Positions 39,369 through 55,463 of a stretch of 64,000 nt of DNA are shown in pieces. The notes under the pieces are model-generated. The model saw nothing but the letters and a program-made list of their open reading frames with translations, did not search any database and was not told the DNA's origin. How positions within the stretch are numbered: position 1 is the stretch's first letter; every line of letters begins with the position of its first letter. The stretch covers positions 11,089 to 75,088 of IMG/VR virus record IMGVR_UViG_3300036846_000489. The stretch is one strand, 5' to 3'. The translations under genes and the position numbers were made by a program. Source of the DNA: a virus.

Positions 39369-39600
39369 CCCCTTCGGGGTGTGGTGTCCTTCCACAGAGA
39401 GCCGGGCGATCCCGTCGCTCGGCTCTCACCACATCTGGCGCGAGAAGGGGCTTGACCGCGCAAGATGAGCGAAGGCATGCTTTCCCTATCGTCGCGGGAT
39501 CGCACACCTTGGAGCCAGCTATGTGACCTGCTAGCGCAGCATTATGAATGGATACGGAATTGGTGTGCTACCTGTTGGGCATCCAGCGACGCGGGTAGAA
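39369..39600 (+). ncRNA. Candidate structured RNA with anti-RBS bulge
   Basis: 82-nt hairpin 39369-39450 with G.U pairs on +, plus a domain sharing 20/21 nt with the early leader; lies in a 387-bp gap between convergent genes. Confidence 0.55.
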
Positions 39601-50121: not shown

Positions 50122-50231
50122 GAATGTGTCCTTCTGTCCGTGGTGGAAATTCCCGGGACTGGCCCAGGCGGAAAAAGCGTGGGGCAGAGGTTTCCCCCTG
50201 CCCCGAGTTGTTTCCGTCACGGTCAGTCAGA

Positions 50232-50762: not shown

Positions 50763-52110
50763 TCAGGTATCGAAGTCGCGGCGATGCGCCGCTAGGATTT
50801 CCGCGATTTCCTCTGATGGGATCGGCTCGGCCCGATAGAGGATATCGATGTCCGGCACTTTGCTGATGATCATCCGGTAGCCGGGTGGCATTTTCTCCAG
50901 CAACATGAGAATGGTTGCTGCCACGTCGGCATTTTCATCGTTTACCATCCGTTTCTCCTTGCCCTAAAAAGCGAAAGCTGAGACCGTGATTGCCGTCGTT
51001 CTCCCCGACAAAGGATATCGCTGGATGCCCCTCGATCAACAGAAGGTCTTCGTAGAAGCTGTCCCATTCGTCGATCACGGTATCCATCTCTTCCCCTTCT
51101 TTCGGGTAGTTCTCGGCTATGTAGGCGTCGAGCGACATCTGCCGAGCCAATAATACGGCGTTGCCTTCTTCCTGGGCATTCACCCGGATCGCTTGCATGT
51201 AGCCTTCGTCTCCTATCAGGATGACGGTGTAGGGTTGCATTTGGTGTCCTTTCTCCCGAACCATTCTGGCCCAGGGAGAAACGTCGTCCGCAGACGACGC
51301 TTCCCTCACAGGTCAGGCTTCTTGGGGTTCGCCAAACAATTCCTTCCACATCTCGACCGTGGAGAACTGTTCGACCAGCTTCTTCGCCTCGTCCTCTGGC
51401 TGCGGCTCTATGCTCATGGTTTCGTAGCTCTTGACGAAGAGGTAGAACCGGGAGCTTGCGGTGCGATACAGGATCGCATGATCCCAGTGGAGATACTGGC
51501 CGAGGTCGCAGATCGGCTTTCCCTTATCCGTATCGTAGAGAACGCCGTCGATTATTTTCTGCATTTGGTGTCCGTCCTTCTGTCTCCCGTGCCAACCACT
51601 GGCCCAGGCGAGGACGGCCACGGTTCCCCGCGCCGCCTTCGTCTTGGTCAGATAAGTGGTTTCCATCCACCCCATGGGGGAAGCTCTTCGCCCCACCGTT
51701 TCTTCGGCTTCACCCTCTTGCTGCGTGCGGTCACCGCCCGATCATGGGCGGCTCCCAACGCGGCATCCGACATTGGTTTCTCTTTCGCCCGAGACCAGCT
51801 ATCGCTTGGCCCCACACGAAGCCGAACCTCTGGCACGCTTCCATAGGGCAGACCCTTCGCCTTGGATTTCCGGTTGGGATTTCCCTGACGAAGGAACTTC
51901 CTGCCCTTCGGATACGACCAGTTAATCCGAGACTTTTTCTTCACTCGGAATAGGCTCGAATATGACCGACCACTCGGGGTTTGATCCTTCCGGGTTGCAT
52001 CTGATTACGATCTGCTCTCCGGGAGAAAGGTCGTCGAGAAACTCGACCACCCGCTGAATGATGGCGAACCTTGGTTCTTCGTATTCGCGCTTGTTGGCGA
52101 CTTCTTCCAT
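50763..52110 (-). CDS. Small early genes (50763-50948, 50935-51240, 51313-51564, 51648-51773, 51922-52110)
   Basis: Motif RBS starts; KIIDG.LYDTDK..LYRT..FYL in 51313-51564; 50763 and 51922 share PG..EPIPSEE. Confidence 0.6.
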
Positions 52111-52792
52111 GTGTCTGTCCTTCCGTTCACACTCGTGCTCTGTCTTGGGGGCTTGCAACCCTCGGCAACCTTTCGGCTGACGGCGACATTCCGACCGACC
52201 CCCGTAGGGGCCGGGCGGTGAACAGAGGTTAAGGACACACCAAATTTTCGTATGAATACAACCGAGACTGTTTCGCCCTTCCCGCCCGCAAGATCGCCTC
52301 ACGGCTACCCTTACGACTTGTTCTCAGGCTAGGCTGTATCCACACGCCCGTATCCATTCACAATGCTGGCTTACACGCTGACGCCAGCAGACATCCGACA
52401 ACCCTGCTCACGCCCACCGGGCGTTTTTCTAGGTGTCGGTGTATCTACTGTGTCAGCCAGAGCGGGGCGCTCTTGGCAGGCTTACAAGGATCGCGCTCTC
52501 CCGGTATTCCCAACGCGCATTGATCCAGGGGGGTTTATGTTGCTGCCCATTTCGCCTTGCCAGTCTGATACCCTTTGCGACCTCTGTTGAGGTCGGGCCT
52601 TCTGGGTGGCACTATGGCGTGGCCGTGGTCCGCTCCTTGACACACTGTCGGCCAGCGTGTCACCTCGGACACCGTCCACTTGCACCTCGGAAGTTCTTTC
52701 CTCGCACGCTTGCAGCGCCCCATCTTCACCTGTCAAAGAACCCGCCGGGGTCGAAGGCGGGGCGGCCCGCCGCCCCTTTTCCTCCCGGCCAT
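52111..52792 (-). ncRNA. Long structured 5' leader / candidate large ncRNA
   Basis: No credible ORF between the strong promoter and first gene; many short hairpins, several with GNRA loops; boxA-like GTTCTTTGACA at 52731-52741. Confidence 0.6.
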
Positions 52793-52798
52793 TTTAAG

Positions 52799-52827
52799 AT
52801 CATAGCAAATTTTACCAGGTTTGTCAA
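52799..52827 (-). promoter_or_regulatory. Strong sigma70 early promoter
   Basis: TTGACA-17 bp-TATGAT. Confidence 0.88.
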
Positions 52828-52973
52828 GGTGGAGGATGCGCGGCGGTGGCGCCGTTCGCCGGTTTCCATCGTTGCTCATGTCCCAGGCGACACGCGACCC
52901 GCGAAACGATAACTTGCTTCGCCAATAGCTTTGCTTTATGCCGGGCGATGCTGTTCAATTGGGGAACGCCACC

Positions 52974-53639
52974 ATGAAAAAGCTCTTGTTTGCCGCCACC
53001 ATTCTTGCCGGCTCCTACCTGCCCGCTCTCGGTGCCACGACCGACACGTTCTGCGGCCCGTCGTCCGGTATGGGATGCGAGAACGGGTCCGACCTGATGG
53101 TATTTCTGCAAGACGCCACCGGCACGATGCACGGCTTCGGCAACATCGGCGGTCAGACCATGCTGCCGATCATGGACATCAACTCGGACGGCGGGATGAT
53201 GTCTCTATTGATCGACCTGAAGAACGGCTTCGCCACGATCAAACCGACCAACGGGATAAGCTTCAACGGCGTGGACATCACCATTCCCGGCTTCACCTTC
53301 ACCCAACTGGTATTCGATACCCAGTTGACGCCGGTCGCCGGCCAGAGCACCGACAGTTTCACCACCGAGGGCTTCACCGGGAACCACATCAGCGCCGGGA
53401 TCAATACCTTCATGGAGGCGGCGGACACCGACAAGGAATATTCCATCACCGCCGTAGGCGGTGCCTTCGATGAGGTGAATATCGCGGCCTTGACCGGCTT
53501 CGACGAGATCAAGCACATCGAAGTCGAGGGTCTGGCACCGGTTATCGTGGTCCCGGTCGCCGAACCGAAAGGTATTGCGATCATGGGCCTCGGCTTGCTC
53601 GCGCTCGGTGTCATTCAGGCCAAGCGGCGATGGAGTTGA
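52974..53639 (+). CDS. PEP-CTERM-like surface protein
   Basis: Signal peptide MKKLLFAATIL..; C-terminal VAEPKGIAIMGLGLLALGVIQAKRRWS. Confidence 0.8.
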   Translation: MKKLLFAATILAGSYLPALGATTDTFCGPSSGMGCENGSDLMVFLQDATGTMHGFGNIGGQTMLPIMDINSDGGMMSLLIDLKNGFATIKPTNGISFNGVDITIPGFTFTQLVFDTQLTPVAGQSTDSFTTEGFTGNHISAGINTFMEAADTDKEYSITAVGGAFDEVNIAALTGFDEIKHIEVEGLAPVIVVPVAEPKGIAIMGLGLLALGVIQAKRRWS

Positions 53640-54567: not shown

Positions 54568-54674
54568 TACGAAGTCTCCTGGTCTACGAGGTTTTGCCGT
54601 TTCGCCGTTTCCGGCTCATCGGGCGGGACACGCATCCCGCGACGGCGGGCGGGGATTTCTCCCCGCCCTGGTAG

Positions 54675-55046
54675 TCACGACATGGACGGATCGGCCACCT
54701 CGGCGCCACCGATGAGCGGCAGGCGAGCCGCCCGCTCCGGCGCGACGAACCAGAACTTCGCCCGGTAGCGGTCGCCAGGGTGGTTGTTCGAGCCACCGTT
54801 CTCGTCCTTGCCGCCGCCGACGACGAGGGCCATCGCGTTGGCCTTCGCGACCTGATCGGCGTAGGGGCGCCACGCCCGAGGACCCTGGCCGGCGCGAGCC
54901 TGGATTTCCAGGCGCGAGACGCCGTCCCGAGAGGACGCCGCCGCGACCAGCCACTCGGCGAAGGACTGGCCCTCGACCTCGGGCAGGAGAGCGATGTCCG
55001 GACCCGCGAGAGTGGAGCCGGAGAGGAGCTTGGCAGACTTGGTCAT
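54675..55046 (-). CDS. DUF3489-like paralog
   Basis: WLVAAASSRDGVSRLEIQARAGQGPRAWRP. Confidence 0.6.
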   Translation of the reverse strand: MTKSAKLLSGSTLAGPDIALLPEVEGQSFAEWLVAAASSRDGVSRLEIQARAGQGPRAWRPYADQVAKANAMALVVGGGKDENGGSNNHPGDRYRAKFWFVAPERAARLPLIGGAEVADPSMS

Positions 55047-55463
55047 GGTATTTCCCCTTTCTGGGGTTGTCCCGGGCGGCCCCTGCCGCCCCGCCGGACA
55101 ACTGGAATATGGTATTTTTTACCTGGAAAAACCAGGGAAATCGGGAGCAAACGGCCATTTTCAGATTACAAATCGGCAAGGTTCTGGCGCCGGGCTGGCG
55201 CCGCCCGACCCCTGGCGCCGGGCTGGCCCGCCCACACCGCCGCTACGGCCCCTGGCGGGCCGCTACGCGGCCCCTGGCGCCGCCCGCCACCCTGCCCCAC
55301 GGGGCGCCCTGGCCGCCGCGTAGGAGGCTCCTAGGGGCGTCCGCTGGCTGGGCGGCGTCTACGCTGCTGAGACGCGCGCAGCGCACGGCCGCCCCGCGCT
55401 GGCGCTTTTCGCTCGACGTGGCGGGGCCAGCGGTCTACGCCTCGCTCGCCTTTCGGAACGAAC

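What the first reader, a model, noticed from the sequence alone, without database searches (positions are those of the whole stretch)
52111..52792. ~680-nt structured leader with boxA and an anti-RBS segment
It follows a consensus promoter and begins with GC hairpins and GUUCUUUGACA (rRNA/nut boxA-like), then many stems. Near its 3' end, AUUUGGUGUGUCCUU..CUGUUCAC (52218-52245) can pair with the first gene's GUGAACGGAAGGACAGACAC and nearly matches the complement of AAGGACACCAAAU. It is a candidate antitermination RNA (a terminator lies mid-array), riboswitch-like leader or new large phage ncRNA.
Basis: partly seen in the sequence, partly recalled or inferred. Interest (0 to 1): 0.8.

Follow-up and report, generated by a model that had tools for sequence, protein, structure and literature searches.

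The report
Self-cutting structured leader of phage operon
The flagged 680 bases are the untranslated, folded front end of a soil phage's long early message: it carries an anti-termination-like signal, a segment that pairs over the first gene's ribosome site, and a probable self-cutting twister ribozyme that severs it from the genes, which is an elaborate version of a layout already known from phages such as T7.

Summary
Observation confirmed. On the minus strand, the best sigma-70 promoter in 14 kb (52827-52799) is followed by 680 nt with no credible ORF, then the first gene of a 12.7-kb early operon of a complete 75-kb soil phage.

Four related phages have a 500-830-nt leader at the same place. 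Only two islands are shared: the boxA-like element (52744-52715) and the anti-RBS segment (52255-52219). In all five phages the anti-RBS segment pairs with the first gene's ribosome site and closes a multi-branched domain.

New here: in this phage that domain is a divergent type-P1 twister ribozyme (52195-52132; 32 bits, below Rfam's cut-off). Its T1 pseudoknot is kept by two compensatory pair changes. A sister phage has a hammerhead-like element at the same spot.

Related strains in soil metagenomes show compensatory changes in two leader helices, and G-U changes that fit the minus strand only.

Most likely this is a modular, processed 5' leader, not one giant ncRNA or a riboswitch. The boxA/Nus role is plausible but untested, and no RNA data exist.

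The scan has met the "promoter, boxA, leader, ribozyme, first gene" layout before in other phage genomes. It is a new variant of a known kind.

The parts
52799..52827 (-). Sigma-70-type promoter of the early operon: TTGACA, 17 nt, TG-TATGAT
   Evidence: 11 of 12 matches, the best site in 14 kb. L090 and L008 have TTGAAT/TTGTAT-17-TATAAT at the equivalent place. No change in the fully listed variant strain X2.
52744..52789 (-). 5'-terminal hairpin domain, including the GC hairpin 52776-52759. It occupies the boxB-like position ahead of boxA and may also stabilise the 5' end.
   Evidence: Minimum-energy fold. Variant strains change the loop and shift the stem by matched indels.
52715..52744 (-). 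boxA-like conserved island (core GUUCUUUGACA at 52741-52731, then GGUGAAGAUGG)
   Evidence: One of two islands shared with all four relatives. 10 of 11 matches to GYTCTTTAANA (consensus from PMC5725501). Unique in each genome's leader.
52370..52714 (-). Variable chain of hairpin modules. It includes a GCCAAG-hairpin module at 52477-52455 and a dispensable hairpin at 52613-52551.
   Evidence: Motif map. The module is kept with compensatory outer-stem changes in relatives. The 63-nt stretch 52551-52613 is replaced by 6 nt in strain X3.
52348..52368 (-). Leader half of the leader-trailer complementarity (CAGCAUUGUGAAUGGAUACGG)
   Evidence: 20 of 21 complementary to 39557-39537 at the far end of the operon; it is the only such hit in the genome.
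52256..52365 (-). Local hairpin domain; its inner helix is 52316-52309 with 52293-52286
   Evidence: Fold. Strain variants give two double-compensatory pairs (52312/52290, 52311/52291) and three Watson-Crick to G-U changes that are valid on the minus strand only.
52218..52245 (-). Anti-TIR (anti-RBS) segment AUUUGGUGUGUCCUUAACCUCUGUUCAC
   Evidence: It is the only BLAST-level match to relative G001 (26 nt) and is conserved in all five phages. It pairs with the first ribosome site in every minimum-energy fold.
52195..52214 (-). Hairpin CCGGCCCC-UAC-GGGGUCGG between the anti-TIR segment and the ribozyme. Its last base, G52195, is also the first position of the ribozyme match and lies directly 5' of the P1 strand 52194-52192.
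52132..52195 (-). Divergent type-P1 twister ribozyme candidate. The predicted cut lies between G52191 and A52190.
   Evidence: RF03160, 32 bits (cut-off 67.2), E 6e-5, covering the whole model. P1, P2, P3 and P4 are reproduced by the plain minimum-energy fold. T1 is kept by two compensatory pair changes and T2 is intact. Strain variants covary in P3 and repair a P4 mismatch.
52108..52131 (-). Translation initiation region of the first gene (GUGAACGGAAGGACAGACAC AUG). It is the partner of the anti-TIR segment.
51925..52110 (-). First early gene (61 aa, MEEVANKR...), no known family
   Evidence: Two metagenomic homologues, 98% and 69% identical.
39537..39567 (-). Trailer partner: CACACCAA followed by CCGUAUCCAUUCAUAAUGCUG
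50181..50204 (-). Terminator-like hairpin plus U-run inside the operon. This is the 'mid-array terminator' of the finding.
   Evidence: 10 pairs, 8 of them G-C, followed by ACGCUUUUUC.

Best explanation
The stretch is the 5' leader of the phage's 12.7-kb leftward early transcript. It is a chain of RNA modules, not a single large fold.

Proposed sequence of events:
1. Host RNA polymerase starts at the consensus promoter.
2. The RNA forms a stable 5' hairpin and then exposes a boxA-like element. This may recruit Nus factors so that the polymerase passes the untranslated leader and the terminator-like hairpins inside the operon (inferred).
3. Several exchangeable hairpin modules follow.
4. The leader ends in a three-way junction. 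The G/U-rich anti-TIR segment pairs across the Shine-Dalgarno sequence and start codon of the first gene. That helix extends the short P1 stem of a twister ribozyme lying between the two strands.
5. The ribozyme cuts between 52191 and 52190. This separates the ~600-nt leader from the coding message, which then begins with a 5'-OH on a compact fold.

The anti-TIR helix keeps the first cistron closed until something displaces it. Candidates are ribosomes, a helicase, or the complementary sequences at the far end of the transcript.

Shown: promoter, absence of coding, conservation of the two islands, the pairing topology in five phages, the ribozyme-like fold, and covariation in natural strains. 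Inferred: transcription itself, self-cleavage, Nus recruitment and the translational effect.
For: Setting: the window is a complete 75-kb phage with terminal repeats. The leader sits at the head of a run of small minus-strand genes.

Non-coding:
- No ORF has a coding GC3 pattern.
- No Pfam or PHROG hit for six ORFs.
- No homologue of the longest ORF among 5.8 billion proteins.
- No peptide is conserved between the five leaders.

Conservation: four relatives (G001, G003, L008, L090) have a leader of about 500-830 nt at the same position. They share the two islands in the same order.

Anti-TIR:
- It pairs with the first ribosome site in the minimum-energy fold of all five phages, with phage-specific partners. 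Examples are GUUCAC:GUGAAC against GUUCAA:UUGAAC, and AUGGUUG:CGACUAU in L008/L090.
- Duplexes with the repeated ribosome-site motif are far stronger than for shuffled versions.

Ribozyme:
- Whole-model twister-P1 match at E 6e-5, the only one in the genome.
- Loop L4 CC to UG is matched by L1 GG to CA, so all three T1 pairs and the A-A pair are kept. The T2 pairs, the A at the cut site and the active-site G are present.
- T1 pairs can be swapped for other pairs with activity kept (PMC5113685). The base 5' of the cut is not conserved (PMC5408937).
- G003 has a hammerhead type III-like element (24 bits, E 0.014) at the same junction.

Natural variants in soil metagenomes:
- Four double-compensatory pairs: two in twister P3 and two in helix 52316-52286.
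- A P4 A.C mismatch becomes A-U.
- Six local Watson-Crick to G-U changes are valid only on the minus strand.
- The plus-strand 'terminator' at 52410-52431 loses a stem pair and a T of its T-run in three of the four runs.

Precedents:
- T7 has an exact boxA between promoter A3 and gene 0.3.
- In haloviruses HF1/HF2 a hammerhead lies 13 nt before the first early ORF, with a mapped 5' end at the cut (PMC3088659).
Against: - There is no RNA evidence. No RNA run holds this phage, so start site, cleavage and abundance are unobserved.
- The twister score is less than half of Rfam's cut-off. P1 has only 3 pairs, the A-rich junction is shortened, and a G stands 5' of the cut site.
- Two of the five phages (G001 and the L008/L090 pair) show no known ribozyme at the junction.
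- After cleavage about 25 pairs would still hold the leader on the ribosome site, so cutting alone does not open it.
- The boxA word is not enriched over chance. It is degraded in L008 (7/11). The host and its own rrn boxA are unknown.
- Only five leaders were found, three of them close kin. Covariation across phages is thin outside the 3' junction.
- Eight variant positions break pairs of the minimum-energy fold. Most are in long-range helices that are probably mispredicted.
Confidence: 0.55

Rival explanations
1. The leader's main job is processive antitermination. The boxA-like element (with the upstream hairpin as boxB and the G/U-rich segment as boxC) loads NusB/NusE and partners on RNA polymerase, as in rrn operons and lambdoid nut sites. 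The polymerase then reads through Rho-dependent and intrinsic stops across 12.7 kb, and the leader is held near the exit channel until the trailer emerges. This can coexist with the best explanation.
For: - The hairpin-then-boxA order follows a strong promoter.
- The motif matches 10 of 11 positions of GYTCTTTAANA and is a conserved island in relatives. G001 reads GCUCUUUGACA.
- Terminator-like hairpins lie inside the operon at 50204-50181 and 45650-45633.
- Leader-trailer complementarity exists in G000 (20/21) and G003 (20/20, just before a strong terminator).
- In G003 the leader strand of that helix is the G/U-rich segment, as boxC is in rrn operons (PMC10250234).
- T7 places an exact boxA in its early leader.
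Against: - Matches of this quality occur by chance at the observed rate in the window.
- Position 8 is G in all five phages, and L008 keeps only 7 of 11 positions.
- The conserved island extends beyond boxA (UGAAnAyGG), which suggests a different or additional reader.
- The G/U-rich box lies about 480 nt from boxA, against 18-19 nt in rrn operons.
- The host is unknown, so its own boxA could not be compared.
- No binding test is possible with these tools.
Confidence: 0.3
2. The leader is a trans-acting riboregulator. After ribozyme cleavage it accumulates as a stable ~600-nt RNA. Its 3'-proximal anti-TIR segment pairs with the standardised ribosome sites of about 18 early cistrons and with the trailer. 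This shuts down or times early translation as a block.
For: - The anti-TIR is complementary to the consensus AAGGACACCAAAUG more completely than to the first gene's own variant.
- Mean duplex energy against 19 starts is -20.5 kcal/mol, against -11.7 for shuffled versions.
- GUCCUU occurs only twice on the operon's sense strand, once in the leader.
- In G001 and G003 each phage's own anti-TIR scores best of the four versions against its own start sites.
- A strong promoter plus a cut site could give the leader in excess.
Against: - In G000 the phage's own and foreign anti-TIRs pair equally well (-20.5 against -19.7 to -20.8).
- In L008/L090 the segment is tuned to the first gene's private spacer.
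- A genome-wide duplex scan shows no specificity over background.
- One leader is made per message, so stoichiometry argues against block control unless the leader outlives the message.
- There are no expression data.
Confidence: 0.15
3. It is a riboswitch-like or thermosensing leader. A ligand, temperature or a protein remodels the anti-TIR helix to switch the first gene or the ribozyme on and off.
For: - An anti-RBS helix is the usual expression platform of such switches.
- The hairpin 52214-52195 lies directly 5' of the ribozyme's short P1 strand (52194-52192), so alternative folds could form.
Against: - No riboswitch or aptamer family matches even at E up to 10.
- No conserved aptamer-like core is shared among the five leaders. 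Everything upstream of the anti-TIR except the boxA island is variable.
Confidence: 0.05
4. It is not a functional RNA. It is a decayed or spacer region, or it holds an unrecognised small gene, for example the plus-strand 26-codon ORF at 52252-52332 that follows the inverted ribosome-site motif and precedes a plus-strand terminator-like hairpin.
For: - On the plus strand, AAGGACACACCAAAU is followed 6 nt later by ATG.
- Two plus-strand terminator-like hairpins lie in the region.
- Modules are repeated and shuffled between phages, as expected for cassette debris.
Against: - The small ORF is not conserved in any relative. In G003 and L008 the complement of the segment has no GGA core.
- Strain variants weaken the plus-strand terminator but keep the minus-strand pairing through G-U.
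- Compensatory changes and conserved islands show selection on the RNA.
- No ORF has relatives.
Confidence: 0.04

Closest known systems
Early leader of coliphage T7 (host promoters A1-A3, boxA, RNase III site R0.3, then gene 0.3)
   Same: Host-type promoter(s), then a boxA in an untranslated leader, then an RNA processing site directly before the first early gene of a long polycistronic message. The exact boxA GCTCTTTAACA at T7 813-823, between A3 (750) and gene 0.3 (925), was checked. The RNase III site is from my own knowledge.
   Different: Here the leader is about four times longer. The processing element looks like a self-cleaving twister rather than a host RNase III site. The leader also carries an anti-TIR segment and a leader-trailer complement, and boxA departs from the consensus at position 8.
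Hammerhead ribozymes in phage transcripts (Perreault et al. 2011, PMC3088659), notably HHphage of haloviruses HF1/HF2
   Same: A small self-cleaving ribozyme lies just upstream of the first ORF of an early polycistronic transcript, and the in vivo 5' end maps to the cut. Clustered ribozymes cut long prophage messages into gene-sized pieces. Sister phage G003 has a hammerhead-like element at the junction.
   Different: In this phage the class is twister. The ribozyme is embedded in a helix made by an anti-TIR segment and the ribosome site, and it follows a 600-nt structured leader.
Type-P1 twister ribozyme (Rfam RF03160; PMC5408937, PMC5113685)
   Same: P1-P2-P3-P4 layout, L2 GC and L4 GC for T2, four-position T1, A at the cut site and active-site G.
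   Different: It scores 32 bits against a cut-off of 67.2. Two of the normally invariant T1 C-G pairs are replaced by U-A and G-C. The base 5' of the cut is G instead of U. The P4-P2 junction is shortened and P1 has 3 pairs.
rrn operon leaders: boxB-boxA-boxC and the leader-trailer helix (PMC10250234, PMC2724277)
   Same: The order is hairpin, then boxA, then a G/U-rich leader strand that is complementary to a sequence beyond the end of the transcription unit.
   Different: The transcript is a protein-coding phage operon. The distance between boxA and the G/U-rich box is about 480 nt, not 18-19. The G/U-rich strand also masks a ribosome site.
Lambda nut sites with N, and HK022 put RNAs (cis-acting antitermination signals in phage early leaders)
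   Same: An RNA signal close to the early promoter, in a phage whose early operon contains terminators.
   Different: No N-like protein or put-like double hairpin was identified. The HK022 comparison rests on my own knowledge and was not tested.

Membership tests
Twister ribozyme, type P1 (RF03160) | Score at or above Rfam's gathering threshold | tested here: not met
   32.0 bits against 67.2. E 6.4e-5 for the region and 1.5e-6 as scored per genome.
Twister ribozyme, type P1 (RF03160) | Essential stems P1, P2 and P4 (P3 optional) | tested here: met
   - P1: 3 pairs (52194-52192 with 52135-52133).
- P2: 4 pairs (52188-52185 with 52144-52141).
- P3: 7 of 8 pairs with a GAAA loop.
- P4: 2 pairs plus the G-C extension; the third pair is A.C here and A-U in strains X2 and X4.
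The stems also appear in the unconstrained minimum-energy fold.
Twister ribozyme, type P1 (RF03160) | Double pseudoknot: T1 (L4 with L1; three Watson-Crick pairs plus A-A) and T2 (L4 GC with L2 GC) | tested here: met
   Read from the alignment against the description in PMC5408937. T1 is U-A, G-C, C-G and A.A, where two C-G pairs are replaced on both sides. T2 is G-C and C-G, unchanged.
Twister ribozyme, type P1 (RF03160) | Catalytic and mutation-intolerant nucleotides: A at the cut site, the active-site G, and Osa-1-4 positions G13, G30, A46, G48 | tested here: inconclusive
   The cut-site A, the active-site G and the equivalents of G13, G30 and A46 are present. The G48 equivalent is C with a compensating partner. 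PMC5113685 reports that T1 pairs can be replaced with activity kept, but this exact combination has not been assayed. My mapping of Osa-1-4 numbers partly rests on memory.
Twister ribozyme, type P1 (RF03160) | Site-specific self-cleavage | not testable with these tools
   Needs an in vitro transcription and cleavage assay.
boxA / Nus-factor antitermination signal | Match to the boxA consensus (GYTCTTTAANA for gamma-proteobacteria, PMC5725501; rrn UGCUCUUUA, PMC2724277) | tested here: inconclusive
   G000 and G001 match 10/11, G003 and L090 9/11, L008 7/11. Position 8 is G in all. The rate in the window equals chance.
boxA / Nus-factor antitermination signal | Location in the promoter-proximal transcribed leader, conserved among relatives | tested here: met
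   The motif lies about 50-65 nt downstream of the promoter in G000 and L090. It occurs only in the leader in each genome and is one of two conserved islands.
boxA / Nus-factor antitermination signal | Agreement with the host's own rrn boxA, and binding of NusB-NusE | not tested
   The host is unknown. The closest cultured terminase is from Rhizobium phages at 55% identity. No binding tool is available.
rrn-type leader-trailer helix | A long complementarity between the leader and a sequence beyond the last gene, kept in relatives | tested here: inconclusive
   G000 has 20/21 (52368-52348 with 39557-39537) plus an adjacent 8-nt match to the anti-TIR. G003 has 20/20, just before a terminator. 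None was found in G001. The leader strands are different segments in G000 and G003.
Riboswitch or known large ncRNA (ROOL, GOLLD, HEARO and others) | Match to any curated Rfam model | tested here: not met
   No match at gathering score in the 64-kb window. Nothing except the twister at E up to 10 on the leader.
Hammerhead ribozyme type III (RF00008), in sister phage G003 | Core CUGANGA...GAAA, GUC cut site, three stems, score at or above the cut-off | tested here: inconclusive
   24.1 bits against 48.5, E 0.014. The core is present with one extra base at N7. Stems I and II are good and stem III has 3 pairs.

The most novel reading that the evidence does not exclude
The leader is not just cut away. 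It is released by the twister as a stable RNA of about 600 nt that acts as a master regulator. Its G/U-rich 3' segment can wobble-pair with the standardised A/C-rich ribosome sites of about 18 early cistrons and with the trailer. One RNA would then time or shut off translation of a whole anti-host gene array and tie the two ends of the message together.
Probability: 0.15. Interest if true: 0.8.

Novelty: new variant of a known kind. Interest (0 to 1): 0.55.

Why it matters
Phage early operons carry the genes that take over the host and counter its defences. How their expression is timed is poorly known outside a few model phages.

This leader combines four RNA devices in a single 5' UTR, and four relatives keep the same layout:
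- a Nus-type signal;
- a ribosome-site mask;
- a self-cleaving ribozyme;
- complementarity between the two ends of the message.

If the twister is active, it extends the family's sequence space, because two 'invariant' T1 pairs are swapped. It would also give a clear biological role, leader removal, for a ribozyme class whose natural functions are largely unknown.

The ribosome site and the ribozyme's open stem share one helix. That suggests a testable coupling between RNA processing and the start of translation.

Tried and rejected
- Rfam at gathering score on the whole window: nothing. tRNA/tmRNA scan: nothing.
- BLAST of the leader against phage and plasmid collections: no match.
- nhmmer of the leader against 41 terminase-linked loci: nothing.
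- Looking for relatives through the small neighbouring proteins in viral contigs: none.
- Anti-TIR pattern scans of viral, metagenome and genome collections: only G001, G003, L008/L077 and L090 are real. About 30 other hits are chance matches in AT-rich or coding DNA.
The 69%-identical homologue of the first gene (P0002), which might carry a moderately diverged leader, could therefore not be fetched.
- No RNA holder was listed for this stretch, so expression could not be examined.
- A genome-wide duplex-energy scan with the anti-TIR did not discriminate it from shuffled oligos (timed out, 49). I replaced it with a test restricted to start sites.
- C/G ratio of the leaders as a sign of Rho avoidance: inconsistent between phages.
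- Literature search for the exact boxA-like words: nothing relevant.
- Reading TTGACA inside the boxA-like island as a second -35 box: no -10 element at a usable distance in any phage (by eye).
- Known ribozyme at the junction in G001 and L090: none at E up to 10.
- Several long-range helices of the whole-leader minimum-energy fold (for example 52468-52470 with 52715-52717) are contradicted by strain variants. I do not rely on them.
Full report
CONTEXT. The window is bases 11089-75088 of a complete 75,088-bp IMG/VR phage genome with 123-bp terminal repeats. It is a tailed phage with terminase, portal, tape measure, baseplate and tail fibre genes. It comes from soil. The closest cultured terminases are from Rhizobium phages at 55% identity. 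The finding lies on the minus strand. About 30 small genes run leftward from 52110 to about 40400, and the flagged stretch is what precedes them.

OBSERVATION.
- TTGACA-17-TATGAT with a TG extension (52827-52799) is the only 11-of-12 promoter match in 14 kb.
- The transcript would begin near 52792 with a stable hairpin domain (52789-52744) that contains GGGGCGGC/GCCGCCCC.
- Next comes GUUCUUUGACA (52741-52731), then many stems.
- The sense strand folds 3.7-4.8 standard deviations better than dinucleotide shuffles. The antisense strand does not.
- AUUUGGUGUGUCCUU..CUGUUCAC (52245-52218) pairs with GUGAACGGAAGGACAGACAC(AUG) at -23.5 kcal/mol.
- It is also the complement of AAGGACACCAAAUG, the ribosome-site motif repeated in front of about 18 early genes.
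- A terminator-like hairpin lies inside the operon at 50204-50181.

NON-CODING. My GC3-based gene map leaves 52111-52790 empty. Six ORFs in the region have no Pfam or PHROG match. The longest (159 aa, plus strand) has no relative among 5.8 billion proteins. No peptide is conserved between the five leaders compared below.

RELATIVES. BLAST and nhmmer found almost nothing. The exception was a 26-nt match in relative G001 (terminase 80% identical), and that match is exactly the anti-RBS segment. From this I recovered four more leaders by motif:
- G001 (L043 about 850-1700);
- G003 (L058 about 60-850);
- L008 (same contig as L077);
- L090.

Each is a non-coding stretch of about 500-830 nt in front of an array of small genes that carry their own standardised ribosome site. 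G003 uses AACAGAAAGGAACA and G001 uses UUGAACAAAGGAC. Against G000 only two islands recur in all four relatives, in the same order. These are the boxA-like element (52744-52715) and the anti-RBS element (52255-52219). The middle is a mosaic of hairpin modules whose order differs between phages. One module (GCCAAG, hairpin, GGUYGA) shows compensatory outer-stem changes among G001, G003 and L090. All five sense strands fold better than shuffles, with z from -2.4 to -5.3.

THE ANTI-RBS (ANTI-TIR) SEGMENT. In the minimum-energy fold of the 3' part of all five leaders, this segment pairs with the first gene's Shine-Dalgarno region and start codon and closes a multi-branched domain. The partners differ between phages in a matching way:
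- GUUCAC:GUGAAC in G000 against GUUCAA:UUGAAC in G001;
- CUUUCUGUUG:CAACAGAAAG in G003;
- AUGGUUG:CGACUAU in L008/L090, which is specific to that first gene's spacer.

The invariant UUGGUGUGU is G/U-rich, so it can wobble-pair with the various A/C-rich spacers. Against the 19 standard start sites of G000 the mean duplex energy is -20.5 kcal/mol, against -11.7 +/- 1.8 for shuffled versions. Each phage's own version is best or near best for G001, G003 and L090, but not distinctly so for G000. A genome-wide scan was uninformative.

A RIBOZYME AT THE JUNCTION. A permissive Rfam search of the leader gave one notable hit. It is a whole-model match to the type-P1 twister ribozyme at 52195-52132, lying exactly between the anti-RBS segment and the ribosome site. 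The score is 32 bits against a cut-off of 67.2, with E 6e-5, and it is the only such hit in the genome.
- The plain minimum-energy fold reproduces P1, P2, P3 and P4.
- I read the alignment against the published architecture (PMC5408937). The L2 GC and L4 GC of pseudoknot T2 are intact. The A at the scissile site and the active-site G are present.
- The two departures from 'invariant' letters match each other. L4 CC becomes UG and L1 GG becomes CA, so all three Watson-Crick pairs of T1 and its A-A pair survive.
- Exhaustive mutagenesis showed that T1 pairs can be replaced by other pairs with activity kept, and that P1, P2 and P4 tolerate mismatches (PMC5113685). The base 5' of the cut is not conserved (PMC5408937).
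- The predicted cut is between G52191 and A52190.

In G003 the same position holds a hammerhead type III-like element (24 bits, E 0.014) with a GUC site, good stems I and II and a 3-pair stem III. In both phages the anti-RBS:RBS helix is the outward continuation of the ribozyme's short open stem. G001 and L008/L090 show no known ribozyme there. L090 has a hammerhead type II-like element after its first gene.

NATURAL VARIATION. Contigs of four soil metagenomes cover the leader with diverged strains. I mapped the listed differences on the fold.
- Four pairs changed on both sides and stayed paired. Two are in twister P3 (52178/52167 A-U to G-C; 52176/52169 C-G to A-U). Two are in helix 52316-52286 (52312/52290 and 52311/52291).
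- 52147 C to U turns the P4 A.C mismatch into A-U.
- Six local single changes swap Watson-Crick for G-U on the minus strand. They would be A.C mismatches on the plus strand.
- The plus-strand terminator-like hairpin at 52410-52431 loses a stem pair and a T of its run in three of the four runs, while the minus-strand hairpin survives.
- One strain replaces 52551-52613 with 6 nt, which is a dispensable module.
- The fully listed X2 haplotype (22 substitutions in 720 nt) has none in the promoter, the boxA island or the anti-RBS segment. About 2.7 would be expected, so this is only weak support.
- Eight changes break predicted pairs. Most are in long-range helices that I therefore distrust.

boxA. 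The motif matches GYTCTTTAANA (PMC5725501) at 10 of 11 positions in G000 and G001, 9 in G003 and L090, and 7 in L008. Position 8 is G in all five. It follows a hairpin, as boxA follows boxB in rrn leaders (PMC10250234). Such matches occur at the chance rate in the window. The conserved island runs on beyond boxA, and the host's own boxA is unknown. The reading is reasonable but untested.

LEADER-TRAILER. 52368-52348 is 20/21 complementary to 39557-39537 beyond the last genes, with CACACCAA next to it that matches the anti-RBS segment. In G003 the anti-RBS segment itself is 20/20 complementary to the end of the last early gene, just before a strong terminator. None was found in G001.

MECHANISM AND RIVALS. 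My best account (about 0.55) is a modular, processed 5' leader:
- a promoter-proximal hairpin and a boxA-like signal;
- exchangeable hairpins;
- a terminal three-way junction in which the anti-RBS segment masks the first ribosome site and props the P1 stem of a twister, which then cuts the leader off.

Antitermination through Nus factors may well be part of it (0.3, not exclusive). A trans-acting 'master anti-RBS' RNA is the most interesting reading that remains open (0.15). A riboswitch (0.05), or a non-functional or coding stretch (0.04), is unlikely.

COMPARISON AND NOVELTY. The layout of promoter, boxA, processing site and first early gene is that of the T7 early leader. I confirmed the exact boxA at T7 813-823. 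A ribozyme just upstream of the first early ORF is known from haloviruses HF1/HF2, and ribozyme-punctuated prophage operons are known as well (PMC3088659). Earlier notes of this scan describe 'boxA to twister' leaders in other phage genomes. The points specific to this case are:
- the length of the leader;
- the anti-RBS helix shared between translation control and the ribozyme stem;
- the match of that segment to a standardised ribosome site and to the trailer;
- a twister with swapped T1 pairs.

I class it as a new variant of a known kind, with interest 0.55.

LIMITS. There are no RNA data, only five leaders, an unknown host, and one tool (look-up of encoding contigs) was closed.

Noticed in passing
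L043 1033-1086 and 1538-1590; L058 293-352; L090 276-334; weaker copy at window 52477-52455 (minus): A recurring leader module: outer stem, CCAAG, a GCGC-tetraloop hairpin (GNRA loops in G001), then (A)GG-UYGANCCAWC. Five outer-stem pairs change on both sides among four copies. It matches no Rfam family. In G001 one copy sits where G000 has the twister.
   Followed up: partly
G003 (L058) genome 70975-71050: The last early gene of G003 ends in a 20-nt exact complement of the leader's anti-RBS segment. A strong intrinsic terminator follows directly (GGGCGCCAGCGG..CCGCUGGCGCCC plus a U7 run).
   Followed up: partly
window 52117-52126 (minus strand): Metagenome contigs (runs X1 and X3) match 52126-52164 (the 3' half of the twister plus GUGAAC) and then continue into different sequence that begins another gene (M-R-K-K-S-R-I, like the ORF starting at 51944). 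This suggests gene cassettes are exchanged right at the ribosome site, or that a second twister copy exists in relatives.
   Followed up: no
window 52551-52613: One soil strain (run X3) replaces this 63-nt hairpin-bearing stretch of the leader with 6 nt.
   Followed up: no
L090 839-915: A hammerhead type II-like element (29 bits, cut-off 37) lies in the spacer after the first early gene of a sister phage. G003 spacers carry CUGAUGAG...GAAC words in front of the standard ribosome site.
   Followed up: no
window 52938-53639 (+): The divergent neighbour of the promoter encodes a 233-aa protein with a signal peptide. By eye its C-terminus is PEP-CTERM-like (..AEPKGIAIMGLGLLALGVIQAKRRWS). There was no Pfam or PHROG hit, so this is unconfirmed, and such a protein is unusual in a phage.
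   Followed up: partly
window 52759-52776 and 52410-52424 (+): Two plus-strand terminator-like hairpins lie inside the leader DNA. They might stop antisense transcription, but strain variants weaken the second one.
   Followed up: partly
window 54600-55400: A stretch of 66-73% G+C, well above the genome's roughly 59%, with overlapping ORFs of uncertain reality.
   Followed up: no
window 39379-39394 (minus): The trailer holds a ribosome-site look-alike (GGAAGGACACCACACC) with no start codon. It is a possible decoy partner for the leader's anti-RBS segment.
   Followed up: no
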